From assembly GCA_964425745.1 (NCBI GenBank), contig CAYRNW010000011.1:8505-72504 (forward strand): 64,000 nucleotides of DNA, read 5' to 3'. Positions 1,778 to 62,359 of this stretch are shown piece by piece. The DNA is from an uncultured Eubacteriales bacterium. GTDB taxonomy: Bacteria; Bacillota; JAAYKD01. Made by a program: the position numbers and the translations under genes. Under the pieces are notes generated by a model. That model did no database searches. It was not told the origin of the DNA and saw nothing but the letters and a program-made list of their open reading frames with translations. How positions within the stretch are numbered: position 1 is the first letter of the stretch; each line of letters begins with the position of its first letter.

Positions 1778-3043
1778 ATGAGTGCGAAGCATGTGATTGT
1801 GGTATCCTACGATGCCTTTGCCGCCGAAGACTGGTCTTTGGCGGCTTCTCTTCCCAATATGGCTCGTTTATTGGAAAAAGGAGCCTATTCGGACCAACTG
1901 CAAAGTGTGGATCCGAGTTTGACCTATGTTGCTCATACTACCATGGTTACCGGAGTTTCACCCCACCGGCATGGTATACTGCACAACAATCCCTTCCAGC
2001 CGTTTGTCGCTGAATCCGAGCAAGCTTGGCATTGGTTTCACAATCAAATTCAAGTACCGACGCTTTATGATCTTGTACAAGAACAGGGTGGGACGACGGC
2101 AGCGATCCTATGGCCGGTCACTGCAGGGGCTAAAATCAAGTATCATTTACCGGAAGTTCGTGCCATTGGCAAAGAGAATCAAATTTTAAAAGTTCTTCGA
2201 TATGGCAGTCCTTTCTACTGCCTCGATATGGAACGCCGCTTTGGTTCTTTGCGAAAGGGGATTGAGCAACCCAATCTAGATAACTTTATAGCCGCTGTTG
2301 CCGCTCACACACTTCGGACCAAGCAACCAAACTTGATGTTGATTCATTTTATTGAATTGGATGAGATGAAACACCACCATGGTACCCAGTCTGTGCAAGC
2401 AAAACGGGCCATTGTTAATATGGATGAACATTTGGGACAGCTCATCAAAGCTGCGGAAGAAGCGGGAATCTTGGATGAAACGGTTTTTGTAGTAATCGGA
2501 GATCATAGCCAGCTGGATTACCATACCAAAATCTATTTGAATCGTCATTTGCGTGAAATGGGAATCATTCTCGAGACAGCAACAGAAAAGACCTGGAAAG
2601 CTTGGTTTCAGAGCACTGGAGGTGGGGCTTATTTGCACTTTGCTCCCGGAGCAGAGGAGACCAAATCTATCCTATTGAAATGGTTGGAGGAGGTTTCTTT
2701 GGAATCGGATTTCGGTATTGAGCGCTTCTTTGAACTCTCAGGGTTGATTTTTGTTGAAGCTAAATCCGGATACTGTTTTGATGATGATTGGCAGGAGCCA
2801 AACGATCTTGTTCCCACTCGCGAAAGCACCACCGGTGCGACCCACGGTTATTCGAAGGAACGAGAGAACTACAGCTCGAATCTACTAGTATCGGGTCCGG
2901 GTATTCGAAATCATTCTAATCTTGGTCCGGTTCGCATGGTCGACATCGCCCCCACCTTGGCTGCTCTCTTTGAGCTACCCTTCTCATCGGAGGGGACGGT
3001 TCTCCGCCACGCTTTTTTGCCAAGTTATTACCAAAATCACTAA
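1778..3043 (+). CDS. Alkaline phosphatase superfamily nucleotide pyrophosphatase/phosphodiesterase
   Basis: VVSYDA, PSLTYVAHTTMVTG (Thr nucleophile), D..KH, GDHSQ, ATHGY and VDIAPT motifs. Confidence 0.85.
   Translation: MSAKHVIVVSYDAFAAEDWSLAASLPNMARLLEKGAYSDQLQSVDPSLTYVAHTTMVTGVSPHRHGILHNNPFQPFVAESEQAWHWFHNQIQVPTLYDLVQEQGGTTAAILWPVTAGAKIKYHLPEVRAIGKENQILKVLRYGSPFYCLDMERRFGSLRKGIEQPNLDNFIAAVAAHTLRTKQPNLMLIHFIELDEMKHHHGTQSVQAKRAIVNMDEHLGQLIKAAEEAGILDETVFVVIGDHSQLDYHTKIYLNRHLREMGIILETATEKTWKAWFQSTGGGAYLHFAPGAEETKSILLKWLEEVSLESDFGIERFFELSGLIFVEAKSGYCFDDDWQEPNDLVPTRESTTGATHGYSKERENYSSNLLVSGPGIRNHSNLGPVRMVDIAPTLAALFELPFSSEGTVLRHAFLPSYYQNH
2992..3033 (+). repeat. Family-A REP arm inside the 3' end of the phosphodiesterase gene
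   Basis: GGGGACGGTTCTCCGCCACGCTTTTTTGCCA closely matches the intergenic arm at 54467 (GGGGACGGTTCTCTGCCACGCATTTCTGCCA). Confidence 0.8.
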
Positions 3044-3059
3044 TTTAGGAGGAACTCAG

Positions 3060-3554
3060 ATGAACTTCATCTCTCAAGTCACCCAAGCCATGATGCAACA
3101 CGAACATGGCAACGCGCACCGCATCAATCATTTCTTGCGCGTGAATGCATATGGAAAAATCATCGCTAACCTCGAACAAGTGGATGAAAAAACCATGCTG
3201 ATTCTTGATACGGTTACGTTAATGCATGACATTGGCATTAAGATTAGCCTACAAAAATACAACAGTGGGGCATGGAATTATCAGCAACTGGAAGGTCCTA
3301 CGGAAGCACGAGCGATTTTACAGAAGCTGGAATGTCCGGATGAATTGCGTGAACGAGTGGAATGGCTGATTGCTCATCATCACGAAACAGAGAATGTTCA
3401 AGAGATTGATTATCAAATTTTGTTGGAAGCCGATTATTTGGTCAATGCGATTGATCGCAAAACTCCAGCAGAAGAAGTTCTTAAAGGGGCTGAAAAGTTC
3501 TTCAAAACTGCGGCGGGTTGGAGTATTTTGAAACATCTTTTGGGTGTGGATTAA
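3060..3554 (+). CDS. HD-domain phosphohydrolase
   Basis: H..RV, LMHDIG, HH and EAD motifs; GGAGG RBS before ATG 3060. Confidence 0.85.
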   Translation: MNFISQVTQAMMQHEHGNAHRINHFLRVNAYGKIIANLEQVDEKTMLILDTVTLMHDIGIKISLQKYNSGAWNYQQLEGPTEARAILQKLECPDELRERVEWLIAHHHETENVQEIDYQILLEADYLVNAIDRKTPAEEVLKGAEKFFKTAAGWSILKHLLGVD

Positions 3555-12629: not shown

Positions 12630-13058
12630 ATGGAAAACTTCAAGCCTAAAGTCGCCTTCATCTGTGTTCATAACTCTTGCCGCAGTCAAATGGCTGAAGC
12701 GCTCGGTAAACTCTTTGCTGCCGATGCTTTTGACAGTTACTCAGGCGGTACCGAGACCAAACCGCAAATCAATCAGGATGCAGTGCACCTAATCAAAGAG
12801 ATTTATAATGTGGATATGGAAGCCACGCAAACCTCTAAACTAGTGACCGATCTACCCGAGTGTGATATTGTTATCAAAATGGGCTGTGCGGTTTATTGTC
12901 CTTTTTTTCCGGGTCGTTATGAAGAAAACTGGGGCCTTGAAGACCCGACCGGAAAAAGCGACGACGAATTCAAGATCATTATTGACGTAATCGAGCGTAA
13001 TATCAAACACCTCGCCCAACGAATCCTCAACAACGAAATCACCTACGAAGACTGGTGA
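12630..13058 (+). CDS. arsC: Arsenate reductase, LMW-PTP fold
   Basis: CVHNSCRSQMAE P-loop, MGC...CP and WGLEDP. Confidence 0.88.
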   Translation: MENFKPKVAFICVHNSCRSQMAEALGKLFAADAFDSYSGGTETKPQINQDAVHLIKEIYNVDMEATQTSKLVTDLPECDIVIKMGCAVYCPFFPGRYEENWGLEDPTGKSDDEFKIIIDVIERNIKHLAQRILNNEITYEDW

Positions 13059-13071
13059 GACTTGGGGATTC

Positions 13072-13094
13072 TTGGGGACGGTTCTCTCCCCCTC
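13072..13094 (+). repeat. Family-A REP arm left of the RAYT gene
   Basis: TTGGGGACGGTTCTCTCCCCCTC, inverted relative to 14019-14037. Confidence 0.9.
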
Positions 13095-13234
13095 ATTTTA
13101 CCAAAGCGTTGCCAATTACACGGCGGCGCTTTTTTTGATCTTGATGTAAAAATAAAATGAAATAAATACAATCTTATGATATGATGTCCGAGATAGAGAT
13201 ATAGGGTTCAAGATAGAGAGAGGGAGGGAATACT

Positions 13235-14020
13235 ATGCCAAGAGATCAACGGCAGAGAAGTGAAAGTGGGATTTATCATATTGTGATGCGCGGAATTAAC
13301 CGTGCTGTTATTTTCAAAGATGAAGAAGATTGCAGTGTGTTTCTGCGTTATGTAGAAAAAGCAAAAGCAGAGGCGAAGTTTCAACTTTATGCGTATTGTT
13401 TGATGTCAAATCATATTCACTTATTATTGAAAGAGGGAGAAGAGGAGCTTGGAATCGCCTTTAGACGAATCGGTTCGGGGTTTGTAGGGTGGTACAATCG
13501 CAAATATGAGCGCTGTGGCCATCTTTTTCAAGATCGATTTCGCAGCGAGCCTGTGGAGAGTGAGCAGTACCTATTTACAGTTCTTCGATATATTCACCAA
13601 AATCCGGTAAAGGCAGGGGTTGCAAAGACCGTTCTTGAGTATCCCTGGAGTAGTATTCACGAGTATTGCTCAGCTGCCAAGCTATGCAACACGAATGATG
13701 CACTAAAATGGTATGAAAATTTAGAACCTTGCAAAAGTATAGAGGATTTTTTACGAAGCCAGGAATACGAAAGCTCGATAAAGGATTGGAACAATACAAA
13801 TTGGACGTATCAGAAAACCCTCGAATCGTATGAGTTCCTTCGAACGGCGACACCCTGGGAACAACGAGAACAGCTTTCCGAACAAGATCGATTTGAGTGG
13901 ATGAAAATTTTGATCAAGATGGAAGCACCGATTGCGAAGATCGTGCAATTAACAGAAATCAACCGTTGTTTTGTAGAAAAATCTGTTGCTGGAATTGGAA
14001 AAAGAGAGGAAAAATATTGA
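13235..14020 (+). mobile_element. REP-associated tyrosine transposase (RAYT / TnpA-Y1, HUH endonuclease)
   Basis: YHIVMRG, YCLMSNHIHLL (HUH), GHLFQDRF, YIHQNPVKAG (catalytic Tyr), YPWSS and a C-terminal HTH-like tail; flanked by inverted REP arms; no tnpB. Confidence 0.92.
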
Positions 14021-14037
14021 GGGAGAGAACCGTCCCC
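14019..14037 (-). repeat. Family-A REP arm right of the RAYT gene
   Basis: GAGGGAGAGAACCGTCCCC overlapping the TGA stop. Confidence 0.9.
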
Positions 14038-14181
14038 TAGGTAACTGACTTATGTCAGAAATACAATAAAAGTTTATGACAAATGACATAAACTAATGTT
14101 ATTTTGTAAAGGAATATTGTATTTATACCAAGAATTGACTAAAAAGCAAAAATTAACTTTACGAAAAATTTTACAAACACC

Positions 14182-22258: not shown

Positions 22259-22429
22259 GGGGACGGTTCTCTCCCCTCCAAATTTACCGTTTAATTACCA
22301 TATAATTATAATGCTAATGTATAATTAAAAAGCCCAGTTGATACATCGTTGTGATGTTTCAACCGGGCTTTTTCTATTGCTTGTATTTCCCATTTAATTG
22401 GTAAAAAACCAGGGGAGAGAACCGTCCCC
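22259..22429. repeat. Family-A inverted arm pair (171 bp) enclosing a terminator
   Basis: GGGGACGGTTCTCTCCCCT ... AGGGGAGAGAACCGTCCCC. Confidence 0.9.
22327..22373. terminator. Bidirectional intrinsic terminator
   Basis: AAAAAGCCC...GGGCTTTTT long hairpin between convergent genes. Confidence 0.8.
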
Positions 22430-23643: not shown

Positions 23644-23681
23644 AAAAAAAAACCTATGGAACATTTTACTGTCCCACAGGT
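23644..23681 (-). terminator. Riboswitch expression-platform terminator
   Basis: Minus strand ACCTGTGGGACA-GTAAAA-TGTTCCATAGGT plus T-run, overlapping the aptamer 3' end. Confidence 0.8.
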
Positions 23682-23760
23682 GTATGTAATACTTTTATAC
23701 CCTGCTGCCCGACTTAAGGGCCCGGCATTTCCCCTTGTGAGAGAGTAGCCTGCTCAGTAC
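23667..23760 (-). ncRNA. NiCo (czcD) riboswitch aptamer
   Basis: Minus strand ACTGAGCAGGC...GCCGGGCC...GGCAGCAG...CTGTGGGACAGT matches the NiCo four-way-junction consensus; upstream of a CDF gene. Confidence 0.9.
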
Positions 23761-23793
23761 TGTAGCAAAATGCAGTGCTAAGTCAACGACTAC

Positions 23794-29905: not shown

Positions 29906-29977
<72 letters not shown>

Positions 29978-29981
<4 letters not shown>

Positions 29982-34259: not shown

Positions 34260-34352
34260 TTGGGGACTGTTCTCTCTTGTTCTTGGGGACGGTTCTCTCC
34301 TTGCTGGTTTTGCCTTAAATCTGGTAAAAAACGAGGGGAGAGAACCGTCCCC
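34260..34352. repeat. 68-bp family-A REPIN (34285-34352) plus an extra upstream arm
   Basis: GGGGACGGTTCTCTCC...GAGGGGAGAGAACCGTCCCC; variant arm GGGGACTGTTCTCTC at 34262. Confidence 0.9.
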
Positions 34353-34484
34353 AAGATGAAACCCAAGATGATAGATAAATCTTGGAGCGAAAAGTTTCCC
34401 GTTGAGCGGCTTCTGACCGAAGGTCGGCAGAGCTCAGAGGGATCTTTGAGCGATCCTGTAATCTATTTGTAAACTTACCAGATA

Positions 34485-36420: not shown

Positions 36421-38291
36421 AACCAGTGAAAACGGAATCACGAACCTTTTTGGAGTTTAGTTTGAAGCTATTGGGGTATAAGAAATGGACCACTGTGGCG
36501 AACCTGTTTTGCAACAGCATCATCTTTTCTCATCAAGCAGCCGTCACCTACTTCATACGGCAGATTCTTAATAATTTTTCAGTGGACCCAGCCGATGCGC
36601 TGCGTAAAGCGTATCCGTATTTGATTGGCTTCATGGCAGTCGCCGGAGTTCGAGTGGTGGCGATCATGAGTTGTGCTGTTTTAGATGCCAAGCGAGCCTA
36701 TTTTTACCAAAACCGTATTCGTTTGAATGCGATGCAACATCTTATGCAAAAGCCCGATATTACGCAGGTGACGGGGAAGGCCAATCAAATTTTTGAAATC
36801 CTCGATGACGATATTCCGGTAGCAACCTTTCCGGTTGAATTGCTTACGGAAGCTTCTGGATATGCGGTGTATACCTTGATTGCGTTGTCCATGATGCTGA
36901 GCATCAACTGGCAGCTCACTCTATTCATTTTTGTGCCGCTTTCTGCTGCCATTTACGGGGTGCAACGTCTCTCGGAGCGGATGAAAGAACGGCGTAAGGT
37001 CAACCGCGAAGCTCATGATGCTGCTAGTGCTTTTATTGGTGATATTGCCGATGTGGCGATGTCGGTGAAATCGGCAGGAGCAAAAGAGGCAGTGTTGCAT
37101 CGTTACGACCAGGTTAACGGAGTGCGAAGGAGTGCAATTTTGCAGGAGAAAAGCTTTAATGAACGAGTTGAGCTCCTGCTTTCGGGTTCGGTGGCGCTGG
37201 GTTCCGCGGTGATGATGTTCATTGCGGCGCGCTTGTTGGCCGGTGAGAGCTTTGGCATTGGCGATTTCAGCTTTTTTATTGCTCACTTGTTTACCTTGTC
37301 GGAATGTGTGTATCGTGTTGTGGAGATTTATACTGAATCTCGCAAGGCAGAGGTATCCTACGAGCGGATATTAAGTGCCCTCGATTGCGAGCCAGAGCTT
37401 TTGACAAGGAAAAACGAGTTGGTGTTAAGGGAAGTGGTGGAAGAGGAGGGTGGATTGAAGGAGGATAAGGCGGAGGCGGTTGCCGATAAACTACGTGTAA
37501 TTACAGAGAAGGAACAAAGACCGCTCGATGCTGATGCAGGGCTGCTGAGTGGAAGTCCTACCCACACACAAGCTCTTACACAAGCGGCTGGAGAGACTCG
37601 AAACGACGAAAAAAAGGTTGCCCTCTTGCGGGTGCAAGACTTGACCTACACCTACACGGGCAACGATGGTTTTCGCGATGTTTCATTTGATTTGCATCCC
37701 GGGCAACTGACCGTGATCGCCGGTGGTATGGCATCCGGCAAATCCACCCTGCTTAGCACCCTGCTAAACCTCTTGCCTTACCAGTTGGGGACAGTTCTCT
37801 CCCCGTCAAAATTTCCAGAAAAATGGATTATAGGAGCTCCTCAACGCAGCGGTTTCTTTGCAACCGATCTTGAGACGAACCTGAAGTTGGGCCAGAAGCT
37901 GAGTGACGAGGAGATCGCGCGGGGACTGAACATTGCTGCGCTGCCGTCGTCTATCCCCTTGGCCACGGAAATTGGGGGAAGAGGAGATAAAATCTCCGGT
38001 GGGCAACGGCAAAGGCTGCTCATGGCGCGGGTTTTTGCACGGCCACAGCCGATCAAGGTGATTGATGATTGTGTCAGCGCCTTGGATGGCGAAACGCGGT
38101 TGTTGGTGTTGCAGCGAATCAGGGCACACCTAAAAAACAGCGGTGATGCGGTGGTGATTGCTACCAATGCTCAGAATTTTATGCAGCAAGCCGACCAAAT
38201 CATCTTTATGGAACGAGGATTGGTGAAGGGCAAGGGGACGTATGAGGAACTGCTCCGCGGCTATCCTGCTTTTGCTGAAATTGTGTCATAG
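36417..38291 (+). CDS. ABC exporter, permease-ATPase subunit 2 (degenerate NBD residues)
   Basis: ATGA overlap; GGMASGKST, ISGGQRQR, Walker B VIDD, and H-switch replaced (IATN). Confidence 0.88.
   Translation: MKPVKTESRTFLEFSLKLLGYKKWTTVANLFCNSIIFSHQAAVTYFIRQILNNFSVDPADALRKAYPYLIGFMAVAGVRVVAIMSCAVLDAKRAYFYQNRIRLNAMQHLMQKPDITQVTGKANQIFEILDDDIPVATFPVELLTEASGYAVYTLIALSMMLSINWQLTLFIFVPLSAAIYGVQRLSERMKERRKVNREAHDAASAFIGDIADVAMSVKSAGAKEAVLHRYDQVNGVRRSAILQEKSFNERVELLLSGSVALGSAVMMFIAARLLAGESFGIGDFSFFIAHLFTLSECVYRVVEIYTESRKAEVSYERILSALDCEPELLTRKNELVLREVVEEEGGLKEDKAEAVADKLRVITEKEQRPLDADAGLLSGSPTHTQALTQAAGETRNDEKKVALLRVQDLTYTYTGNDGFRDVSFDLHPGQLTVIAGGMASGKSTLLSTLLNLLPYQLGTVLSPSKFPEKWIIGAPQRSGFFATDLETNLKLGQKLSDEEIARGLNIAALPSSIPLATEIGGRGDKISGGQRQRLLMARVFARPQPIKVIDDCVSALDGETRLLVLQRIRAHLKNSGDAVVIATNAQNFMQQADQIIFMERGLVKGKGTYEELLRGYPAFAEIVS
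37785..37826 (+). repeat. Family-A REP arm within the ABC NBD coding sequence
   Basis: TTGGGGACAGTTCTCTCCCCGTCAAAATTTCCAGAAAAATGG, including spacer-like sequence. Confidence 0.8.
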
Positions 38292-38307
38292 GGTGAGACA
38301 ACTTCTT

Positions 38308-38375
38308 GGGGACGGTTCTGTCCGGGGTGAAATTTCCTTAAATATGGAAAAAACCGAGGGGAGAGAACCGTCCCC
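38308..38375. repeat. 68-bp family-A REPIN
   Basis: Inverted arms between convergent genes; right end overlaps the TAG of 38375-39970. Confidence 0.9.
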
Positions 38376-39970
38376 TAAACAAATTTTTCGAAGATACGGT
38401 TGGAAATGACCAGTGCGGTTTCGCGGGAGGAGTTTTTTAAAGGTGCCATGACGCCATTGCCCTCTCCTTTGATGATATTCAATTTATACATGAGTTGCAG
38501 CGGTGTCTTGGCATAGTTGCTGATCTGATCTTCATCGGCAAAGAGCACATATTCCATGGTAACCACGGGTTTAATGTCTAGCGCTGTGAACAAACGCGCA
38601 TACATCGTCGCCATCTCTTGCCGCGTAATCAGGCCGAAGGGGTCAAAAATCCCCTCGCCACGACCGGTGACAATCCCCAATTCGGCAGCTTTTTGCACAT
38701 GCAGGAGGTCAATATCGGTAAACGGATTGACTTCGGGCAGCGGTGCCTCTTGCTTTGCCATGGCTTCATAGAGTTTGACCACCAATTCGGCAAATTCTTC
38801 ACGGCGAATGTTGTTTTGGTAGAAGGAAAACAGATGGGATTCGGTCAGCCAACTGGTGCGTGCGGCCTCGATGTGGGGGAGTGCCCAATCGGCAGGTTGA
38901 CTGTGATCCACTTGATCCCCCGGTTGTCCGGGTTCACCCGGCGGTTGCTCTGCAAGTTGCGGGACACCAATGGCGGTGCCGCTGTTTTCGATGCTACCCT
39001 TGAGCAAAAGCGCGCCGGAAGCCACTTCAACGCCCCCGTTTCTGCTGATAAAGGGTCCATTGACGCTGATTTGTGCGTTGTTTTCAATCCTCAATTGCGC
39101 TTGAGATTCGAGCGTTAGCGATTTGAGGGAGAGGGAGTCATAGAGGTTGACTTGAGCTTCACTTTTTAGTAAAGCTTGACCGCCAATACTTTGCAGCCCC
39201 CCATAAAAGGTGTAGGTACCAAAGTTTTGTAGGCGATTCTGAACCACGAGACCTCCACGGCGTTCTACTTGAAGAGAGGAACCAGCTGAAATGGTGAGGT
39301 CATCTACGACCAGCACAAACTCATCGAGCACAGCCTTACCGGTAAAGATTCCGTTTTCTATGATACCATAGCTAAAACTGTGCGGCCCACCGGTGCGGTC
39401 ATCGATACTCTGTATGGTGCTGCCCTGGGAGACGATAATTCCATCTTCATAAAAAATCCCATCGAAATTCCCGGTAATCGAACCAGCGTTCAGGTATGCC
39501 AAGCCCCCGGTAATGCGCATTCCAGAGCCAATAACACCTTCTAAACTGCCACCGTTCAGGTAAAAAGTGCCCCATCGGCCGGCTTGTTCGTATCCAAAGG
39601 TGCCGCCGACCATGCTGCCGGTGCCCTCTACGGTGAAGCTGCGGTTCTGGCGACCGATAATCGGAACACCTTCTGGGTCGCCAATGCCACCCATGTGGCT
39701 GTAGGTTAGCGTGTGTCCGTTGAGATTTAAGGTATAATGCCCTTCGCCCAGCTCAATGCCACAATCCGCGTCTACTGCTTGTGCAGTCGTAATTGCAAGG
39801 TCGGCCATCAGTTTCACCTTGGCGCCGGCCGGGTTGGTCAGGGCCGCTTTGAGTTGGGTGAAGGTAAAGGCCTCAACATACTCCGCTGCCGCATTCGCCG
39901 GTTCTGAAAAGACATTGATTGCGAAAATGAGAAGTGTAGCAATGAGAATCCATTGCGCAAGTTTCTTCAT
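38375..39970 (-). CDS. Secreted S-layer homology (SLH) domain protein
   Basis: Signal peptide; beta-helix-like Gly-rich region; C-terminal SLH repeats (GIVTGRGEGIFDPFGLITRQEMA). Confidence 0.85.
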   Translation of the reverse strand: MKKLAQWILIATLLIFAINVFSEPANAAAEYVEAFTFTQLKAALTNPAGAKVKLMADLAITTAQAVDADCGIELGEGHYTLNLNGHTLTYSHMGGIGDPEGVPIIGRQNRSFTVEGTGSMVGGTFGYEQAGRWGTFYLNGGSLEGVIGSGMRITGGLAYLNAGSITGNFDGIFYEDGIIVSQGSTIQSIDDRTGGPHSFSYGIIENGIFTGKAVLDEFVLVVDDLTISAGSSLQVERRGGLVVQNRLQNFGTYTFYGGLQSIGGQALLKSEAQVNLYDSLSLKSLTLESQAQLRIENNAQISVNGPFISRNGGVEVASGALLLKGSIENSGTAIGVPQLAEQPPGEPGQPGDQVDHSQPADWALPHIEAARTSWLTESHLFSFYQNNIRREEFAELVVKLYEAMAKQEAPLPEVNPFTDIDLLHVQKAAELGIVTGRGEGIFDPFGLITRQEMATMYARLFTALDIKPVVTMEYVLFADEDQISNYAKTPLQLMYKLNIIKGEGNGVMAPLKNSSRETALVISNRIFEKFV

Positions 39971-42606: not shown

Positions 42607-42618
42607 TGTACGTTTCTT

Positions 42619-42914
42619 GGGGACGGTTCTCTGCCCCTTAAAAATGGAAGTTATATGGGAGAAAGACAACTTTGATAAGATGATTTTCCCTAAACTTTAT
42701 TAAATTGTTGCAGTAGCTTTATTATTGCTAATTCAACGCATCTAATTTTTAATCATTTGTTCCACGACGACTATTGTGGTTGTTGTTTATTAAGTGTCCG
42801 GACGGCCAGCCTATCCCTTTTTTGCAAAGCTAGTAACGCGTTGTCTGTCAGTTTGTCAGGAAATATGGATTGTGGTAAATAACTGTCAAAAAACGAGGGG
42901 AGAGAACCGTCCCC
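42619..42914. repeat. Family-A inverted arm pair (296 bp, AT-rich interior)
   Basis: GGGGACGGTTCTCTGCCCC ... GAGGGGAGAGAACCGTCCCC. Confidence 0.85.
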
Positions 42915-42932
42915 AACTAAAGGAGGAATATT

Positions 42933-44291: not shown

Positions 44292-44962
44292 AAATTCTGA
44301 TTATCAACCCCAATTCTGATCACAAAATGACCGCCGATATTCAGCGTAGCGCGCTTGCTTTTGCCGGGAATCGCTTCGAAGTTGAGACCATGCGCACTCC
44401 CGGTGCACCGAAATTTATCGATACCTACCTCGACACGGCCCTTGCTGTACCCGGAATGTTGCGGCTGATTCGGGAATACGAAGCCCAATTCGATGCGTTT
44501 GTCATCGCTTGTCATTGCGATCCCAATCTCGACCTTTGTAAAGAAGTCACAGCTAAGCCGGTGGTTGGCATTGGCGAAGCATCGATGAAAATGGCCAGCA
44601 TGTTGGGACATCGCTTCTCGGTACTATCCACTTCACCCGACTCGGTGCCTAACAAACAAGCTTTGGTGCATCGTTACGGCCTCGACCACACGCTTGCCTC
44701 GGTGCGTGCTCCTCGTAAAGCCACACAAGACCTCAATGATTTGGACCTCTTCCTGCAATTGGGCAAGGAAGCCATACAACTCGATGGAGCCGAGCTGCTG
44801 GTGCTTGGTTGTGCTGGCCTCTGTGAAATGGGTAACACGATGCAATCCCTACTGGGAGTGCCCGTGCTCGATGGTGTGGTCTGCGGACTCATCATCGCCG
44901 AAGGCTTGGTGCGCGCCAATTACACAACCAGTAAAATCGGTCGATACAAAGGAAATCCATAA
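44288..44962 (+). CDS. Asp/Glu/hydantoin racemase family (allantoin racemase-like)
   Basis: IINPNS, IACHCDP, VGIGEAS and LGCAGL (two catalytic Cys). Confidence 0.88.
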   Translation: MKILIINPNSDHKMTADIQRSALAFAGNRFEVETMRTPGAPKFIDTYLDTALAVPGMLRLIREYEAQFDAFVIACHCDPNLDLCKEVTAKPVVGIGEASMKMASMLGHRFSVLSTSPDSVPNKQALVHRYGLDHTLASVRAPRKATQDLNDLDLFLQLGKEAIQLDGAELLVLGCAGLCEMGNTMQSLLGVPVLDGVVCGLIIAEGLVRANYTTSKIGRYKGNP

Positions 44963-44986
44963 AATATAGCAAAAAGGAGCGATTCC

Positions 44987-47670: not shown

Positions 47671-47864
47671 TGGTACATATCGATGAGCGACTCTGCAAAG
47701 GCTGTCGCTTGTGTGTGACAATTTGCCCCAAAAATGTGCTGGCGATGTCGCAACGAGTCAATAAAAAGGGGTATACTGTCGTGGAAGTGGCACACTCTGA
47801 GGCCTGCATCTCCTGCAAACTCTGTGAAAAAACCTGCCCCGACTTTGCCATCTATGTTGAATAA
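47670..47864 (+). CDS. 2x[4Fe-4S] ferredoxin (oxidoreductase delta subunit)
   Basis: CKGCRLCVTICP and CISCKLCEKTCP. Confidence 0.92.
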   Translation: MVHIDERLCKGCRLCVTICPKNVLAMSQRVNKKGYTVVEVAHSEACISCKLCEKTCPDFAIYVE

Positions 47865-47869
47865 GGGTT

Positions 47870-47989
47870 GGGGACGGTTCTGTCGATTAAGCTGGGGACG
47901 GTTCTGTCCCCCTGAACTTTGCCATAAAAAAGGAAAAAATCAGGCCGAGAGAACCGTCCCCAAGTCATTGAGGGGAGAGAACCGTCCCC
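47870..47989. repeat. Nested family-A REPIN (inner 68-bp unit 47894-47961 inside an outer arm pair)
   Basis: Two GGGGACGGTTCTGTC arms followed by two GAGAGAACCGTCCCC arms. Confidence 0.9.
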
Positions 47990-48009
47990 AAATAAAAGGA
48001 GGGTTGCTA

Positions 48010-49209: not shown

Positions 49210-49231
49210 GGAACGAGGTTGGGACAAGGTT

Positions 49232-49299
49232 GGGGACGGTTCTGTCCTCTTTATTTTTTCCAATTTAGTGGCAATTTTCTAGCCGACAGAACCGTCCCC
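49232..49299. repeat. 68-bp family-A REPIN
   Basis: GGGGACGGTTCTGTC...GACAGAACCGTCCCC. Confidence 0.9.
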
Positions 49300-49365
49300 A
49301 AGAATTAGTCCCCAAGAATTTAAGAATCATATTTACCCAAACCATAATAAAAGGAGGAAATATTT

Positions 49366-49797: not shown

Positions 49798-49848
49798 AAA
49801 TAGAGGTAATTTTTTTGTGAATTCTTGGATATTCTCAATCTCGTCCTT

Positions 49849-49916
49849 GGGGACGGTTCTATCGACCGTTTTTTTGCCACTAAACTGGTAAAAATCGAGG
49901 GGAGAGAACCGTCCCC
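49849..49916. repeat. 68-bp family-A REPIN
   Basis: GGGGACGGTTCTATC...GAGGGGAGAGAACCGTCCCC. Confidence 0.9.
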
Positions 49917-50058
49917 AAGAAGAAATCCAAGAAGAATTCCAAATCGAAATCCGGTGTCAAATGTGTCAAGTGGATATGTTGACAAGCGCGACGCTGCCCA
50001 AAACTATCCTGTCAATACAAATGCTTTACAGATAAAACGTCGTCAGAGGGGGATTTTA

Positions 50059-50802: not shown

Positions 50803-50851
50803 GACGATGAAGCAGATCATTAAATTAATTTACATTAAAATTACTTTACAA

Positions 50852-50890
50852 AAAAAAGGAAGCCACCATCAAAAGTGGACTTCCTTTTTT
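50852..50890. terminator. Bidirectional terminator
   Basis: AAAAAAGGAAG-CCAC / GTGG-ACTTCCTTTTTT between convergent genes. Confidence 0.7.
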
Positions 50891-50906
50891 CGTTGTAGAG
50901 CAGCCG

Positions 50907-50940: not shown

Positions 50941-50945
50941 TAACG

Positions 50946-53900
50946 CTATTTTTTTGCGGTTAGTTTCATTTCCCAGACGATTTTGGCGGTTTGTTCGTTC
51001 AAGATTTGGTTTTGCGGCTTGAGGGTGCCATCGGTGTAGCCGTTGAAGAAGCCAAGCGCCACCGCCTGCGCCATCCCTTTTTCCGCATAATCGCTAATCG
51101 TGGTTTGATCGGCAAACCCTTGCAAGTTGGCTGAATCCTCCTCAGGTAACAAATCCGCATTCCGCAAGGAAAAGCCTCGCAACAACATCGTCGCCGCATC
51201 TTGTCGGGTCACCGTATCCCCGGGCGCAAAGACGACATCGCTCCTGCCGTTAATGACCCCGCAGCGGTATGCCAACTCCATCGCTTGCCGGTCTGCATCC
51301 ACCAGATCAACATCGCCAAACGGGAAGCCCTGTCGCACCGCATCGGCCTCGGTCAACCCCAACGCGCGCACCACCGCACCGGCAAATTCGGCTCGCGTGG
51401 TTGAAACCCCGGCAGAGAACCGTCCCCAAGAATCCAAGTTCATGATTCCGGCGTTTACCACCGAAGAGACGTAGTTTTTGGACCAATCAGGAACTTCGGC
51501 AAAATTGGCAATGGTCACAGGATAGCGCACCGCAACGCCCGAAACTGCAACATTTCCTCTATACATGCCCATTTCCGTCACAAAATCCAAAGGATTCACT
51601 ACAAAACGATCCACACTGCGCAATTGCTCTAACTGGAAAAGCAAATCAAAATGCCGCACATCGCTCGGCAAATAGTCGTCGTAATGGTAGATTACCGGTG
51701 CCGGTGGGATCACGGAAGGATCTTTTAAAGCCACCCCTTCAATGCTCATGCCACTCACAACGTGCCGTGTTTGGAAGAGATCTTCGGTTTGCAACGCATC
51801 GGCCGTCTCTCCCTCCACCGCATAAACATACGACACGGGCACAGCGTTGAACTCGGGATGCCCACTCAAATTTTGCACCGCCAACAACCAATTCGGTTCC
51901 GAAACGGTCACCAGCTGATTCATCGGCCGTCCGGTAGAAGGATTCTTCACCACCTGCCACTCCTCATGATCCACCGTCGCCGGCACATCCTGCAAGCGTT
52001 CCTCCCATTTCCATAAGAAATGTGCCATGCTCACTGCACCTTCGGTAAGCGGAATTTGCGTCAAGGTCTGATTATTCGCTGTCGAAACATTCAGTTGCGG
52101 CTCGTTTGGCATCTCATACAGCAAGTCGGGGAAGGGAGGTCCCACGTAGTACTCATAATGAAGGGGATAGCGAACATCGGCAGCCGGAAATTGCACCGTG
52201 CCAATGTCTTGAATCACCTGGTCCTGGGCAAAACTTTGAGTATAACCTTCCGGCACTCGCCCTAAACTGACCTCTAAGTCCGCGCTGCCACTGTAGGTGC
52301 GATTGCCGTTGTGATTGACCGCCACCACATGTAAGGCCACCTGATGTTGGATGCCAATTGTTTTCCCAGCAAGGTCCAGAATCACCACCGGATAATCTTC
52401 GATCATCCGATGCACCGTCACATGATGACTGGTCAAATGGCCACCGGCACCGGTCGGTTCATAGGTTCCATAGAGGAAACCATCGACATTGACTTGCCAG
52501 CGCATTTCATGATTGGGCTTGACGTTATAGGCTTGGTTGATCATGGTATTGACGCCATCGAAACTGCCGTGCTGAAGAGGCGTATACTCGGTATCTACAC
52601 CATTGGCATGAATCCAGGCTTCTTCGGTCTGCTGGGTTAAAACACTGGTCGCATACAGCTTCACCGGACCCTGATATTTGATCCAACTTTGTGTTTGAAA
52701 ATCCAAATCGATGTTTGGCACATCCAAAACGGTCAAATCGGGTCCGCTCAAACCCGGGAAGGTCACTTTCTCTTCAAAAAAGTCAGCCCAGACGCGACTA
52801 TTGCCATAGAAATCCGATGTTTTCCCAAGTACCTTCTCAGCACCAAAAGGAGTAGAAGCTTGAATCAAATCGGTTTGACCCTGAAAACCGGGAGCATAAA
52901 TCAGAATCTGGTCGCCTTTTTGCACATCGAGCGTGGAAAGATCAACCGAAGCAGCCCCTTGTCCATCGGTTTGCACGGGAATCAGATGGTCCGGTGTGGC
53001 GGTACCTTGTTTGGGATCCTTGCCATTGCGATAATACTTGACCTCGAGGGTGCGTAAGGCAAAGGGCTCTTTATCACTGAAGGGAGGGGCGTTCGACGTG
53101 GTTGCACCGGCCATCCGTTTGGTCATGGCTGCCAAATTGAGGCGATCTTGATACACGCAGAGGCGGCTGAAGTAGAAAATCACGTCATCGGCGGGGTTAA
53201 AGCTTTTGTTGCGTTGTAAAAGGGGCTCCTGCAGCTTGAAAAGGTCGGTGGTGTCATCGAGGATGACCACAAAGGCATGCAAGACAAAATCGACCCCATA
53301 ACTCATGGTGTGCTCCTGGGTGGTGGCATAGGTGTAAAAGCCTAAGCGAAGCTGAGCACCGAAAACATCGACATCGAGGATTTCTAAATTGACCAACGGT
53401 GTGATGTAGAGACCGGCTTCAATGTTTCCCATGGGGTCACACTCGGCATCGGAGTAATGGTCGTAGTCGGTGTTAAGATGGAAAGAAGTGGGAACACCAA
53501 AGCTGGTGCCGCCGTGTACCGAGGCCGTAGCCAGGACTCCTTCAGATGCCTTTACAGTGAGCGTGATGTCGCCGTTGACGTCAACTACCAGATAAACCCC
53601 GATTTTGATGCTGCCGAGGCCGGGAATTGGTACCGAAATGGCAAAAACCGGTAGATACACCTCTTCGTTGAGGGTGACATCGAACATGAGGTTCAGTTCA
53701 ATAAACTGGGCGGCATCGACAAAACCGAACTCGTAGCCATCGAACAGCGAATATTCGGCAACCATGCCGGGGCTGACGCCTAAAGCTCCGCGCAGTGCGA
53801 GTTTAATGGTGTCGCTACTGTCGGTGTTGCCATAGGGATGGAAGGTGTAGGTGCCGTCGTATTCGTAGATTTTGGTGCCACGCTGATTGAATTTCATGCG

Positions 53901-54401: not shown

Positions 54402-54662
54402 GAACCATCATCCTTTCACCTCGAATAGTTTAATATTCGACAAAATCGGACAGACTTCCTTTTCTTGGGGACGGTTCTCTGCCACGCATTTCTGCCATTA
54501 AATTACCAGTCAAAGCAGTCTCATGAGCGTTACCGAATCGTCAACCGAATCTTTAGCCGAAGGATTTTTTTGGAGGGTGGTTAGACTTCAGCATGCTATT
54601 TTTTTAGTTTCAAGAAATACGACGTGAATTAACACGATTAGATTGACGCTATGGGATGCACA

Positions 54663-54701
54663 CCACGAACCACCTCCACGAACCACCTCCACGAGCTACC
54701 T
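54663..54701 (+). repeat. 13-bp tandem repeat x3
   Basis: CCACGAACCACCT twice, then CCACGAGCTACCT. Confidence 0.8.
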
Positions 54702-54730
54702 CCTTCAAGCTCTTCATTCTCTCTCAAATA

Positions 54731-54759
54731 TTGACAATGATCTGGAATGGTGGTATAAC
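54731..54759 (+). promoter_or_regulatory. Sigma-A promoter for the GNAT gene
   Basis: TTGACA, 17 bp, TATAAC with a TG extension. Confidence 0.65.
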
Positions 54760-54884
54760 ATCATAGATAGTTCGTTTCTTCACAAATAGAAAGCGAATTT
54801 TCACCAAAACCCCTAAGAAAAACACCACAATTTTCACCAAAACCCTCGAAAAATTCACCCCAAGAGAGAAGGAATCTACCTCAG

Positions 54885-55439
54885 ATGTTTATCTTTGAAA
54901 CCGACCACCTCATTATCCGCAAGTTTAGAGCAGAGGACGCAGCCGCACTTTACACGTACCTTTCTGACCCTGAAGTTGTGAAATATGAACCCTACCCGCC
55001 CTTTACGCTTTCTGAATGCGAAGCAGAATGCCTCGCTCGCGTCACCGATGACCGTTTTTATGCCGTCTGCTTAAAGTCCGAGGGCACCCTGATCGGCCAC
55101 CTGTATGCAGCTCAACAAAACGAAAAATTCGCCACCTGGATCGTTGGCTACGTCTTCAACCGCAGCTATCACGGACGCGGATATGCCACGGAAGCCACTC
55201 GCGGACTGCTGGGCTATCTGTTTTCACACTGCCAAGCCCACCGCGTCATGGCAAAATGTGACCCCAAAAACGCCCCCTCCTGGAAACTTTTGGAACGACT
55301 TGGCATGCGAAGAGAAGCACACCATAAAAGTGAAGTTTTTTTCAAACAGGATAGCCTTGGGCTGCCGCTCTGGAAGGATACCTTCGTGTATGCCATGCTG
55401 CGTGAAGAGTGGGAGCAGATGCGCGAACCCAAAAGCTGA
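54885..55439 (+). CDS. GNAT N-acetyltransferase (RimJ/RimL type)
   Basis: ETDHLIIR, YHGRGYATEA and N.PSWKLLERLGMRRE. Confidence 0.9.
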   Translation: MFIFETDHLIIRKFRAEDAAALYTYLSDPEVVKYEPYPPFTLSECEAECLARVTDDRFYAVCLKSEGTLIGHLYAAQQNEKFATWIVGYVFNRSYHGRGYATEATRGLLGYLFSHCQAHRVMAKCDPKNAPSWKLLERLGMRREAHHKSEVFFKQDSLGLPLWKDTFVYAMLREEWEQMREPKS

Positions 55440-55441
55440 GT

Positions 55442-55544
55442 TGACCGAAGATGTTGAAGGTGACTGACGATTTTTAAGGTGACTGACGATGTTGAACGTA
55501 ACCGAAGACGTTGAAGATGAAGACTATGAAGACTATGAAGACTA
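55442..55544 (+). repeat. Four degenerate 19-bp tandem repeats followed by TGAAGACTA x3
   Basis: TGACCGAAGATGTTGAAGG, TGACTGACGATTTTTAAGG, TGACTGACGATGTTGAACG, TAACCGAAGACGTTGAAGA. Confidence 0.8.
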
Positions 55545-55741
55545 TAATGAAGTTGAAAATTAAGCCTACAGAAACCTAAACTCGGGTGCAGTGAACTTGG
55601 ACGAAGTTTAAATCGTAGAGAATAGATTTTGAATGGGACAACAGCTTGAGGGGCGTGAAAAATTTTTCGGAAAAGAAGCTTGAATGGAAAATAACTGGAT
55701 AAAAAGCGGGGGAGAGAACCGTCCCCAACATGGAGGAACCT

Positions 55742-57897: not shown

Positions 57898-57905
57898 TAT
57901 TAATG

Positions 57906-57940: not shown

Positions 57941-57947
57941 TTGAGTT

Positions 57948-58015
57948 GGGGACGGTTCTCTCCTTCGGTTTTATTCCAATAAAATGGTATAATGAAGGGG
58001 TAGAGAACCGTCCCC
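57948..58015. repeat. 68-bp family-A REPIN
   Basis: Inverted arms; spacer contains TGGTATAAT. Confidence 0.9.
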
Positions 58016-58120
58016 AAGAAAGATAAGAATGCGATGAGAACATGCTGTTCACGGTGGATTGGAGCGACTTGGATTTAGAAGTTTAAGTGTATAGAGAAGT
58101 TGTAAATAAGGGGGACTTTT

Positions 58121-58672: not shown

Positions 58673-58684
58673 GGTGGTCTACTT

Positions 58685-58752
58685 GGGGACGGTTCTCTCT
58701 TTCGATTATTTACCAGTAAAATGGTATAATTTGAGAGGAGAGAACCGTCCCC
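58685..58752. repeat. 68-bp family-A REPIN
   Basis: Inverted arms; spacer contains TGGTATAAT. Confidence 0.9.
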
Positions 58753-58805
58753 AACTCATATCTTCAACCCAGATCATTATTTGCAAATAAATAAAGAAAA
58801 TAAAC

Positions 58806-62187: not shown

Positions 62188-62359
62188 GGGGACGGTTCTC
62201 TGCTGCTGAAAATTACCAATAAAATGGAATAGTAGTAGAGTAGAGTAGGGTAAATGTTTAATCGTTTTAAGAGACAGATGTCATTTAATTTTATAGATAA
62301 TAAGAACCCTGAAAGCCTGGAAAATAACTGGAAAAAATCGAAGGCAGAGAACCGTCCCC
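62188..62359. repeat. Family-A inverted arm pair (172 bp)
   Basis: GGGGACGGTTCTCTGC ... GCAGAGAACCGTCCCC. Confidence 0.88.

What the first reader, a model, noticed from the sequence alone, without database searches (positions are those of the whole stretch)
13061..14040. RAYT/HUH transposase with its own dispersed GGGGACGGTTCT repeat system
Seen: an intact HUH/Y1 enzyme with a C-terminal HTH-like tail is bracketed by inverted GGGGACGGTTCTCTCCCC arms, and about 30 arms of this family occur between 2992 and 62359. Each arm is itself a short hairpin (GGGGAC-GGTTCT-GTCCCC) and lacks the GTAG tetranucleotide of enterobacterial/pseudomonad REPs. Established: RAYTs act on REP/REPIN sequences and are best studied in Proteobacteria; related Y1 subclasses with short flanking inverted repeats are known from genomics. 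Inference: a dense, recently active system in a Bacillota-like anaerobe that reshapes intergenic and coding DNA.
Basis: partly seen in the sequence, partly recalled or inferred. Interest (0 to 1): 0.85.

Follow-up and report, generated by a model that had tools for sequence, protein, structure and literature searches.

The report
RAYT nuclease with dispersed palindromic repeats
A single-copy relative of the E. coli REP nuclease sits between two inverted copies of a short DNA motif that is this bacterium's commonest repeat, and the same motif flanks related genes across much of the Bacillota, a group in which such repeat systems had been reported as missing.

Summary
ORF 13235-14020 encodes an intact 261-aa Y1/HUH nuclease of the RAYT (TnpA-REP) kind. 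It is bracketed by inverted arms that begin GGGGACGGTTCT. That 12-mer occurs 30 times in the window (0.26 expected) and 124 times in the 2.74-Mb genome. Its 16-mer extension is the genome's most frequent 16-mer. Thirty-seven convergent pairs exist, 16 of them exactly 68 bp, and these fold as long hairpins like REPINs.

Two parts of the interpretation fail.
- The repeat is not the genome's "own". The core GGGACGGTTC flanks 55 of 80 related RAYT genes from many Bacillota. There it forms the loop of a hairpin whose stems covary, and it reaches 49-270 copies in four named genomes.
- "Recently active" is not supported. Element interiors are only about 56% identical while the heads are invariant.

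Some turnover does exist. A congener has an empty site in place of the RAYT unit, and a related strain lacks one doublet.

The protein matches the published description of the HTH-tailed "subclass 2.1/TIRYT" RAYTs, which were reported as lacking REP-like structures. I file it as a new variant of a known kind, of moderate interest. Cleavage and mobilisation are inferred, not shown.

The parts
13235..14020 (+). RAYT (TnpA-REP-like Y1/HUH nuclease), 261 aa. N-terminal catalytic domain about 10-160, C-terminal helical extension about 190-251.
   Evidence: Model pLDDT 85.2. Best PDB fold match 4er8_A, E 2.1e-8, TM 0.76 on the target.
13072..13106 (+). Left arm: TT, then the 12-nt head at 13074-13085, then the C-rich box, T-run and CCA box. 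A degenerate head copy lies just outside at 13061-13071.
   Evidence: Arm consensus from 124 copies.
14008..14039 (-). Right arm in inverted orientation, head at 14026-14037. It overlaps the last codons and the stop of the RAYT gene.
13057..14043 (.). Whole RAYT unit. This 987-nt stretch is replaced by 12 nt at the syntenic site of congener G001.
   Evidence: BLAST of G001:C11 against the window. Synteny of window 75-29789.
13103..13132 (+). Terminator-like hairpin with a T-run, lying inside the unit between the left arm and the RAYT gene. A promoter-like site follows at 13157-13185.
   Evidence: consensus scan only.
34283..34354 (.). 68-bp doublet (REPIN-like) with flanking TT/AA. An extra one-mismatch head lies at 34262.
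   Evidence: ssDNA fold -25.5 kcal/mol, z -8.1.
38306..38377 (.). 68-bp doublet.
   Evidence: Fold -19.5 kcal/mol, z -5.4.
47868..47991 (.). Double-headed doublet: the inner 68-bp element at 47892-47963 plus an outer head on each side. It lies in the 5' leader of an aminotransferase gene whose likely start is the ATG at about 48009.
   Evidence: The 24 nt at 47869 are left out in contigs of runs X11 and X12.
49230..49301 (.). 68-bp doublet between two same-strand genes, with degenerate heads in both flanks.
49847..49918 (.). 68-bp doublet. It and its degenerate flanking heads (49806-49952, 147 nt) are absent from a related strain's contig.
   Evidence: X11, one contig of 3013 nt, 225 nt on the shorter side..
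57946..58017 (.). 68-bp doublet.
58683..58754 (.). 68-bp doublet.
22259..22429 (.). Arm pair 171 bp apart that brackets a terminator-like hairpin between convergent genes.
   Evidence: G001 has a 61-bp spacer here with no heads.
42619..42914 (.). Arm pair 296 bp apart that fills an intergenic region. The right head ends just before a ribosome-binding site.
54467..55726 (.). Arm pair 1260 bp apart that brackets a GNAT acetyltransferase gene (54885-55439).
62188..62359 (.). Arm pair 172 bp apart.
2992..3043 (+). Single arm that supplies the last 16 codons and the stop of a phosphodiesterase-family gene.
   Evidence: The C-terminal tail differs from that of the G001 orthologue.
37785..37826 (+). 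Single arm (head with one mismatch), in frame inside an ABC-transporter ATPase gene.
51416..51427 (-). Single head inside a 1151-codon S-layer-homology ORF.

Best explanation
This is a REPtron-like locus. A single-copy, intact RAYT (a Y1 HUH single-strand DNA nuclease) is flanked by inverted copies of its presumed recognition sequence. The same sequence heads a genome-wide family of short non-coding elements: about 124 heads, 37 convergent pairs, and a modal 68-bp doublet that folds as a hairpin in single-stranded DNA.

Inferred mechanism, by analogy with E. coli TnpA-REP:
- The enzyme binds the head on single-stranded DNA, for example at the replication fork.
- It cleaves beside the head through Tyr119 and the HUH-bound metal, and rejoins strands.
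- This occasionally excises, inserts or rearranges elements.
- The C-terminal helical (HTH-like) domain may add double-strand DNA binding or autoregulation.

The system is old and slow. Heads are kept intact while interiors drift, and turnover is visible only between strains and species.

Shown here: the enzyme family and its catalytic residues, the flanking arms, the over-representation, the extragenic bias, the hairpin potential, the clade-wide link between gene and motif, and the indel polymorphism.

Inferred only: binding, cleavage, mobilisation, and any role of the tail.
For: Enzyme:
- Y1_Tnp and REP_Tyr_transpos matches.
- Invariant H60, H62, Y119, N123.
- Best fold match is the REP-bound E. 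coli TnpA-REP, 4er8_A.

Copy number: one gene of this type, plus one paralogue at 43% identity with a different flanking repeat.

Repeat:
- 30 hits in the window against 0.26 expected.
- 124 exact heads in the genome; the 16-mer extension is the top 16-mer, with 61 copies.
- Sharp outer edge of conservation.
- 37 convergent pairs, 16 of them 68 bp.
- Seven window doublets fold at -19.5 to -25.5 kcal/mol, z -5.4 to -8.7.
- Heads avoid ORFs: 32 of 124 lie inside crude ORFs that cover 88.5% of the genome.

Gene-motif link across the clade:
- The 10-mer core lies upstream-forward and/or downstream-reverse of 55 of 80 related RAYT genes, on both sides in 34.
- In 155 distinct hairpins from those loci, stem pairs 3-7 are paired in 81-89%. 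When the 3' arms are dealt among sequences the figure is 45-64%, and each position shows several pair types.
- Head type clusters on the RAYT tree: 11 changes against a shuffled mean of 21.4, with 0 of 200 shuffles as low.
- The core is over-represented in five named genomes: 270, 160, 63, 49 and 17 copies against controls of 2-9.

Turnover:
- The RAYT unit is absent at the syntenic site of congener G001.
- One related-strain contig lacks 147 nt that hold a doublet. Two runs lack a 24-nt outer head.
Against: - No biochemical evidence exists for this enzyme or its clade.
- Element interiors are only 56% identical and no near-identical copies exist. No recent copying event is therefore visible, and the master-sequence pattern of Pseudomonas REPINs is missing.
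- Complementarity of an element's own two inner arms (0.60) is no better than between different elements (0.62).
- This genome's heads lack the stem seen in relatives, and their local hairpin is not better than shuffles.
- The NCBIfam score is only 1.4 bits above the cut-off.
- G038 (98% complete, 14 copies) has no RAYT hit. G011 (99% complete, 20 copies) has only a weak 36-bit Y1 hit below the cut-off. Congener G002 (53 copies, 80% complete) has only a paralogous RAYT. The repeat can therefore persist without the gene.
- The indels seen between strains are not precise excisions of one element.
Confidence: 0.6

Rival explanations
1. A domesticated DNA-binding system with no mobilisation today. 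The heads are host-selected sites, for example for transcript ends, nucleoid structure or regulation. The RAYT-derived protein binds them through its catalytic domain or its HTH tail. Copy number changes only by ordinary deletion and recombination.
For: - Heads are invariant while interiors have drifted to about 56% identity. This pattern fits selection on the head itself.
- The head persists in genomes where no RAYT was found.
- Elements sit in operon spacers, around terminators and just upstream of ribosome-binding sites.
- In relatives, 22 of 46 hairpins just upstream of the RAYT gene abut a promoter-like TTGACn-N15-19-TAnnnT, against 2 of 110 other hairpins. This suggests autoregulation.
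- Quentin et al. 2018 (PMC6006769, passages and section 20 read) propose non-transposition roles for the HTH-bearing subclass.
Against: - The catalytic HUH and Tyr residues are invariant in 73 relatives, which argues for retained nuclease chemistry.
- The whole RAYT unit is a discrete indel against a congener.
- Nested and double heads look like repeated insertion.
- No host function was tested.
Confidence: 0.25
2. An autonomous IS-like transposon of the IS200/IS605 superfamily with terminal inverted repeats. The doublets are its MITE derivatives and it is currently active in this lineage.
For: - The gene with both arms behaves as one unit against G001.
- Some relatives hold many copies: 12 matches in G030, 5-6 in G007 and G009.
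- G030 has one 913-bp pair at 99.6% identity.
- Bertels et al. 2017 (PMC5581495, passages read) report that their Group 1 RAYTs, found also in Clostridia, are the most IS-like of the RAYT groups apart from their Group 6.
Against: - There is only one copy of this gene in the genome, and the only paralogue is 43% identical and carries other repeats.
- No tnpB-like partner lies beside it.
- There are no near-identical doublets.
- Most G030 copies are 65-88% identical in DNA, so they are old paralogues.
Confidence: 0.1
3. The head is recognised by some other factor. Its position beside RAYT genes is a by-product, for example a preferred insertion target of the RAYT unit rather than its substrate.
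For: - Degenerate head-like sequence lies outside the arms.
- The empty site in G001 has some likeness to the head's 3' part.
- Heads occur without a RAYT in G011 and G038.
Against: - The motif occurs in inverted orientation on both sides of the gene in 34 of 80 loci, at stereotyped distances: about 50-65 nt before the start and 6-20 nt after the stop.
- Head type follows the RAYT tree.
- This arrangement matches that of the REPtrons whose enzymes have been characterised (Ton-Hoang 2012, PMC3333891, abstract read).
Confidence: 0.05

Closest known systems
E. coli REPtron: TnpA-REP (RAYT) with REP/BIME sequences (PDB 4er8; Ton-Hoang 2012 PMC3333891 and Messing 2012 PMC3479197, abstracts read)
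   Same: - Y1 HUH fold with one catalytic Tyr and an Asn four residues after it.
- Low-copy gene flanked by inverted copies of a repeat that is over-represented and extragenic genome-wide.
- Repeats often occur as inverted doublets.
- 4er8_A is the best sequence and fold match.
   Different: - No GTAG tag.
- The conserved element is a 10-12-nt motif which in relatives is the hairpin loop, not a foot sequence.
- The protein is about 95 residues longer, with a helical C-terminal extension.
- The host is a Bacillota.
TIRYT/TIRtron (Di Nocera et al. 2013, PMC3733652, passages read), equated with TnpA-REP subclass 2.1 (Quentin et al. 2018, PMC6006769, passages and section 20 read)
   Same: - Long RAYT-like proteins with a C-terminal HTH-type extension.
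- Flanked by inverted repeats sharing a G-rich start written as GGGG[AT][CG]A[CG].
- Moderately abundant repeat families, some in dimers or clusters.
- Class-2 motif Y---NP and a conserved Ser after the core.
- The two other repeat families of this genome fit that consensus exactly.
   Different: - The head here departs from the consensus at position 7.
- Quentin et al. state that neither automatic nor manual searches found REP-like sequences near subclass 2.1 genes. Here relatives show a covarying stem-loop around an invariant loop and up to 270 copies per genome.
- Neither text names Firmicutes (0 occurrences of that word).
- Membership in subclass 2.1 could not be tested, because its sequence lists are in supplements that were closed.
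REPIN-RAYT systems of Pseudomonas and Enterobacteria (Bertels and Rainey 2011, listing only; Bertels et al. 2017 PMC5581495 and preprint 10.1101/2021.07.10.451892, passages read)
   Same: - Single-copy RAYT.
- The flanking 16-mer is the genome's commonest.
- Inverted doublets form hairpins.
- Long persistence.
- Repeats survive loss of the RAYT.
   Different: - No master sequence with many identical copies; interiors are about 56% identical.
- The head is shared across families and classes of a phylum rather than being lineage-specific.
- Bertels et al. report REPIN association only for their Groups 2 and 3.
IS200/IS605 family (IS608, ISDra2)
   Same: Y1 HUH transposase fold (ranks 2-20). Dependence on DNA hairpins near the ends is inferred.
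   Different: That family is recalled to be multi-copy, to have no terminal inverted repeats, and often to carry tnpB. Here the gene is single-copy with inverted arms, no tnpB was seen in the flanking ORFs, and it scores as RAYT in NCBIfam.
MITE-like repeats of Gram-positive bacteria (bcr1 of Bacillus cereus, RUP of S. pneumoniae; named in the background passage of PMC3733652)
   Same: Short non-coding palindromic elements beside genes in Bacillota.
   Different: Those are tied to classical transposases or to none. No comparison of sequences was made here.

Membership tests
RAYT / TnpA-REP (class 2 Y1 HUH nucleases) | Y1_Tnp fold with an HUH motif and one catalytic tyrosine | tested here: met
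   Pfam PF01797 at E 5.6e-12. H60-I-H62 and Y119 are invariant in 73 sequences. Foldseek top hit is 4er8_A.
RAYT / TnpA-REP (class 2 Y1 HUH nucleases) | Class-2 tyrosine motif Y---NP (Quentin 2018); Asn four residues after the Tyr (Ton-Hoang 2012 passage) | tested here: met
   Y119-I-H-Q-N123-P124 in the ORF. Y119 and N123 are invariant; P124 is conserved in at least 90%.
RAYT / TnpA-REP (class 2 Y1 HUH nucleases) | Curated family model above its cut-off | tested here: met
   NF047646 scores 81.4 bits against a cut-off of 80, a narrow margin.
RAYT / TnpA-REP (class 2 Y1 HUH nucleases) | Low copy number, with copies in one genome divergent | tested here: met
   Two Y1 genes in 2.74 Mb, 43% identical to each other.
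RAYT / TnpA-REP (class 2 Y1 HUH nucleases) | Gene flanked by inverted copies of a sequence that is over-represented genome-wide | tested here: met
RAYT / TnpA-REP (class 2 Y1 HUH nucleases) | Cleavage and strand transfer on the cognate single-stranded repeat | not testable with these tools
   Needs purified protein.
GTAG-tagged REPs (subclasses 2.2/2.5; Groups 2 and 3) | GTAG tetranucleotide at one end of the palindrome | tested here: not met
   The position table of 124 copies shows S-T-T before the head and no GTAG column set.
GTAG-tagged REPs (subclasses 2.2/2.5; Groups 2 and 3) | Each unit is a stable 20-40-nt stem-loop | tested here: inconclusive
   Weak in this genome: -3.4 kcal/mol, z -0.84. 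Clear in relatives: 6-7-bp covarying stems.
REPIN populations (Bertels and Rainey) | Two units in inverted orientation at short distance that form a hairpin | tested here: met
   37 convergent pairs, 16 of them 68 bp. Folds at z -5.4 to -8.7.
REPIN populations (Bertels and Rainey) | A master sequence with many identical or near-identical copies | tested here: not met
   Interior identity has mean 0.56 and maximum 0.78 among 16 doublets. Seven of 7626 arm pairs reach 90%.
TIRYT / subclass 2.1 | Long protein with a C-terminal HTH-type extension (Bac_DnaA_C, HTH_23 or HTH_28) | tested here: inconclusive
   261 aa, with helices at 192-251 at pLDDT about 90. Among 73 relatives, HTH_7 is touched by 10, HTH_23 by 5 and HTH_28 by 2, all weakly. 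There is no HTH hit for the window protein and no Bac_DnaA_C hit.
TIRYT / subclass 2.1 | Flanking inverted repeats with GGGG[AT][CG]A[CG] | tested here: inconclusive
   The head's first eight bases match 7 of 8 positions (G instead of A at position 7). The repeats of the paralogue and of G002's RAYT match 8 of 8.
TIRYT / subclass 2.1 | Placement inside the published subclass | not testable with these tools
   The member lists are in supplementary files, which were closed.
IS200/IS605 | Several near-identical copies, no terminal inverted repeats, frequent tnpB partner (features recalled, not read here) | tested here: not met
   Single copy, inverted arms, and neighbours that are an LMW phosphatase-family gene and an ORF with no Pfam match.

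The most novel reading that the evidence does not exclude
The HTH-tailed RAYT subclass was published as lacking REP-like structures. It may in fact be the nuclease of a phylum-wide Bacillota REP system. In that system the recognition element would be an almost invariant 10-nt hairpin loop (GGGACGGTTC) on freely covarying stems. The system would reach hundreds of copies in some genomes and be kept under selection on the head itself, even after the gene is lost. This window would show a derived form in which the stem is gone and the heads pair with each other in 68-nt doublets.
Probability: 0.5. Interest if true: 0.65.

Novelty: new variant of a known kind. Interest (0 to 1): 0.55.

Why it matters
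Work on REP and REPIN systems rests almost wholly on Proteobacteria. The largest HTH-bearing RAYT subclass has been treated as having no repeats, which left its function open.

A clade-wide invariant loop with covarying stems gives a precise, testable recognition determinant. It also points to cultured hosts with hundreds of copies, such as Mesobacillus subterraneus, in which to test it.

It would explain a common source of contig breaks and intergenic variation in Bacillota genomes assembled from digesters and guts.

Conserved heads alongside decayed interiors bear on an open question: are such repeats selfish elements or host-maintained sites?

Tried and rejected
- DNA-level comparison with the two congeners found only the repeats themselves. 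The species are too divergent. I switched to protein synteny.
- Two literature searches were badly framed and returned noise.
- Searches for the 12-mer and 10-mer strings found only unrelated primer-type hits: 3 papers, and 20 listed of 64.
- Nunvar 2010 (PMC2817692) was only checked for six taxon words, all with 0 occurrences.
- A single-sequence fold of the C-terminal 80 residues was poor (pLDDT 64.9, pTM 0.29) and was not searched. The HTH assignment therefore rests on the full-length model and on weak Pfam hits in relatives.
- Rfam at gathering thresholds gave nothing for the repeats.
- A Di Nocera CGTC-type REP was considered, because the reverse strand of the head contains CGTC. I rejected it. 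Those elements have 8-9-bp stems and 4-5-nt loops and are not linked to transposase genes.
- Several read laying joints (57938 to 60247/60249; 50934 to 60248; 60282 back to 57908; 42643 to 47948) have short sides of 18-31 nt. They start or end at copies of the other two palindromic repeat families (50918, 57917, 60260) or at heads. I treat them as repeat-induced and draw nothing from them.
- Element-specific compensatory pairing inside the doublets was tested and not found.
Full report
**What is there.**
The window is G000:C11:8505-72504 of a 2.74-Mb, 54-contig, 43.5% G+C assembly. ORF 13235..14020 (+) encodes 261 residues.
- It matches Pfam Y1_Tnp (E 5.6e-12, residues 13-123).
- It matches the NCBIfam equivalog REP_Tyr_transpos at 81.4 bits, 1.4 bits above the cut-off.
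- Its only PDB sequence match is E. coli TnpA-REP, 4er8 (E 1e-5).
- In an alignment of 73 relatives, N59, H60, H62, R118, Y119, H121 and N123 are invariant. The HUH motif, the catalytic Tyr and the RAYT-type Asn four residues later are therefore intact.
- The alignment-based AlphaFold model (pLDDT 85.2) is closest to 4er8_A (E 2.1e-8, TM 0.76 on the target, 150 columns). IS608 and ISDra2 transposases follow.
- About 95 residues extend beyond the E. coli enzyme. They are modelled as five helices at 192-251.
- Among the 73 relatives, 10 touch Pfam HTH_7 weakly, 5 HTH_23, 3 HTH_38 and 2 HTH_28. The window protein itself touches none.

**The arms and the repeat family.**
The gene is bracketed by inverted arms, with heads at 13074-13085 (+) and 14026-14037 (-). 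The right arm overlaps the stop codon.
- The 12-mer head with up to one mismatch occurs 30 times in the window. Shuffles give a mean of 0.26 and a maximum of 2.
- It occurs 124 times exactly in the genome, 63 forward and 61 reverse. The reversed control pattern occurs 3 times.
- Its 16-mer extension is the most frequent 16-mer of the genome, with 61 copies.
- A position table of the 124 copies shows a sharp outer edge (S-T-T, then the head). A C-rich box, a T-run and a CCA box follow. No GTAG is present.
- Thirty-seven adjacent convergent pairs lie within 3 kb, and 16 are exactly 68 bp.
- Seven such doublets in the window fold as single-stranded DNA at -19.5 to -25.5 kcal/mol, z -5.4 to -8.7.
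- The small hairpin within one arm is no better than shuffles: -3.4 kcal/mol, and 43 of 200 shuffles fold as well.
- Wider pairs bracket a terminator-like hairpin (22259-22429), an intergenic region (42619-42914), a GNAT gene (54467-55726) and 172 bp at 62188-62359.
- With a crude ORF map covering 88.5% of the genome, only 32 of 124 heads lie inside an ORF, and some of those are start-codon artefacts.
- In the window, 3 of 30 heads are truly in coding sequence. One arm provides the last 16 codons of a phosphodiesterase-family gene whose tail differs from the G001 orthologue. One is in frame in an ABC ATPase. One head lies in an S-layer-homology ORF.
- The contig holds 28 heads where 3.3 are expected.

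**Age of the population.**
- The heads are invariant, but the 36-nt interiors of the 16 doublets are 56% identical on average (maximum 78%).
- An element's two inner arms are no more complementary to each other (0.60) than to those of other elements (0.62).
- Over all 124 arms, 7 of 7626 pairs reach 90% identity in the 30 nt beyond the head, and several of those are the two arms of one palindrome.
- There is thus no sign of recent copying. The pattern instead indicates constraint on the head.

**Turnover.**
*Empty site in a congener.* Congener G001 (97% complete) has no head and no RAYT. Its contig C11 is syntenic with window 75-29789. At the RAYT site it has 12 nt where the window has 987 nt, 13057-14043.

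*Related strains in metagenomes.* I laid contigs of four metagenome runs (sludge, landfill, biogas fermenter, bioreactor) on 42000-61999.
- One 3013-nt contig of X11, about 96% identical, skips 49806-49952. These 147 nt hold a doublet and its degenerate flanking heads. The shorter side of the joint is 225 nt.
- Contigs of X11 and X12 lack the 24-nt outer head at 47869.
- These are indels at repeat sites, not clean excisions of single elements.

**The wider picture.**
*Distribution of the protein family.* The protein has more than 7000 relatives of about 252 aa, named by sources from Acetobacterium, Desulforamulus, Heliorestis, Tepidanaerobacter, Pelosinus, Alkaliphilus and others. The closest is 96% identical and the next 48%.

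*The motif beside related genes.* Eighty related loci were fetched from species genomes. Nearly all are Bacillota, including Bacilli and Negativicutes.
- The 10-nt core of the head lies forward upstream and/or reversed downstream of the gene in 55 of the 80: 34 on both sides, 21 on one side, 25 on neither.
- The 25 without it mostly carry variant heads that begin the same way.

*A covarying hairpin.* In these relatives the core is the loop of a hairpin whose 6-7-bp stems differ between genomes.
- In 155 distinct hairpins from 56 loci, stem pairs 3-7 are formed in 81-89%.
- When the 3' arms are dealt among sequences the figure is 45-64% (maxima 55-71% in 200 shuffles). It is far lower when the partner is slid.
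- Each position shows two or three common pair types.
- Copies within one genome are related, so these are not independent events. Even so, 64 distinct 5' stems occur.

*Copy numbers.* The core is over-represented in all five genomes reached through named loci: 270, 160, 63, 49 and 17 copies against 2-9 for the reversed control. Among 40 relatives of the window's genome, several that hold a RAYT carry 7-53 copies of the 12-mer.

*Imperfect link between gene and repeat.*
- G038 (98% complete, 14 copies) has no RAYT hit.
- G011 (99% complete, 20 copies) has only a weak 36-bit Y1 hit below the cut-off.
- Both carry canonical hairpins.
- Congener G002 (80% complete, 53 copies, with 68-bp doublets) has only a paralogous RAYT.

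*The RAYT tree.* The window's RAYT, its own paralogue on C18 and G002's RAYT form a clade (SH-aLRT 99) with three different head types. Head type as a whole clusters on the tree: 11 changes against a shuffled mean of 21.4. The tree used the quick method and a midpoint root. Ten of the 80 loci were dropped for short ORFs or missing flanks.

*This genome's form is derived.* This genome's heads have lost the canonical stem. This is a derived form in which the heads pair with each other.

**Comparison with what is known.**
- The arrangement is that of a REPtron (Ton-Hoang 2012, abstract). E. coli TnpA-REP is a monomeric, auto-inhibited, Mn-dependent nuclease that binds a REP hairpin (Messing 2012, abstract).
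- Di Nocera et al. 2013 (passages) described RAYT-like 'TIRYT' genes flanked by inverted repeats that share GGGG[AT][CG]A[CG], with moderately abundant repeat families.
- Quentin et al. 2018 (passages and section 20) equate these with subclass 2.1: long proteins with C-terminal Bac_DnaA_C, HTH_23 or HTH_28-like domains. They state that neither automatic nor manual searches found REP-like sequences near those genes.
- Bertels et al. 2017 (passages) found REPIN association only for their Groups 2 and 3. Their Group 1, which also occurs in Clostridia, had flanking 16-mers of about 12 occurrences.
- None of the RAYT/REP papers I opened contains the word Firmicutes. The motif strings gave no relevant paper. 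A search for TIRYT, TIRtron and REPtron found 7 papers, none on Bacillota.
- Supplementary lists, which may name Bacillota members, were closed.
- I therefore file the locus as a RAYT/REP system of the HTH-tailed kind. It is new in three respects: it shows a clear REP-type hairpin with an invariant loop, high copy numbers, and a Bacillota-wide spread.

**Verdict.**
The best reading is an old, slow RAYT-REP system (0.6). The main rival is a purely domesticated binding system (0.25). Novelty is a new variant of a known kind, and interest is 0.55.

Noticed in passing
G000:C18:3026-3784 (-), outside the window: A second RAYT paralogue, 43% identical. It is flanked by a different palindromic repeat (type GGGGTCWGACCCC, with a conserved neighbouring box) that has 47 genome hits. 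Five copies lie in the window at 40057, 40957, 40990, 50918 and 60260.
   Followed up: partly
window 47005 and 57917; genome-wide: A third palindromic repeat family (type GGGGACWGTCCCC, 16 hits) has no RAYT of its own in this genome. The RAYT of congener G002 is flanked by exactly this type (L004).
   Followed up: partly
window 58121-58672: An ORF with no Pfam match lies between two 68-bp doublets. Depth over 58008-58674 is about 0 in runs X10, X11 and X12 but 6.7 in X7. Contigs join 57900 to 58682 (X12, 73 nt on the shorter side; letters between not known). It may be a strain-specific gene bounded by doublets.
   Followed up: partly
window 54467-55726: A complete GNAT acetyltransferase gene with its upstream region is bracketed by an inverted arm pair. 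This resembles a passenger gene in a composite element. No second copy was sought.
   Followed up: no
window 42903-42935, 47978-48011, 55715-55745: Three heads end 5-10 nt before a ribosome-binding site and start codon of the next gene, so the element would lie in the 5' leader.
   Followed up: no
relatives, loci L058-L137: In 22 of 46 hairpins just upstream of the RAYT gene, the 3' stem abuts a promoter-like TTGACn-N15-19-TAnnnT. Only 2 of 110 other hairpins do. This suggests that the gene's own promoter is coupled to the hairpin.
   Followed up: partly
G030 (L142:212-1124 and 2242-3154): One relative holds 12 RAYT matches, mostly 65-88% identical in DNA. One 913-bp pair is 99.6% identical, 2 kb apart on one contig.
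   Followed up: partly
genome-wide: The second most frequent 16-mers (40-41 copies, overlapping one another) look like the repeat of a CRISPR array. Its place in the genome was not looked up.
   Followed up: no
window 23667-23763 (-) and 29906-29978 (+): A NiCo riboswitch (49.1 bits) and a tRNA gene.
   Followed up: no
window 54795-54829: A 33-nt unit of a short tandem repeat upstream of the GNAT gene is skipped in one X11 contig.
   Followed up: no
loci L058, L111, L116: Three RAYT loci with the same head come from assemblies labelled Candidatus Acetothermia, Deltaproteobacteria and Prevotella. This points to horizontal transfer or binning error.
   Followed up: no
window 3060 onward: A gene start conserved with G001 lies right after the arm at 2992. 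My crude ORF list missed this gene.
   Followed up: no
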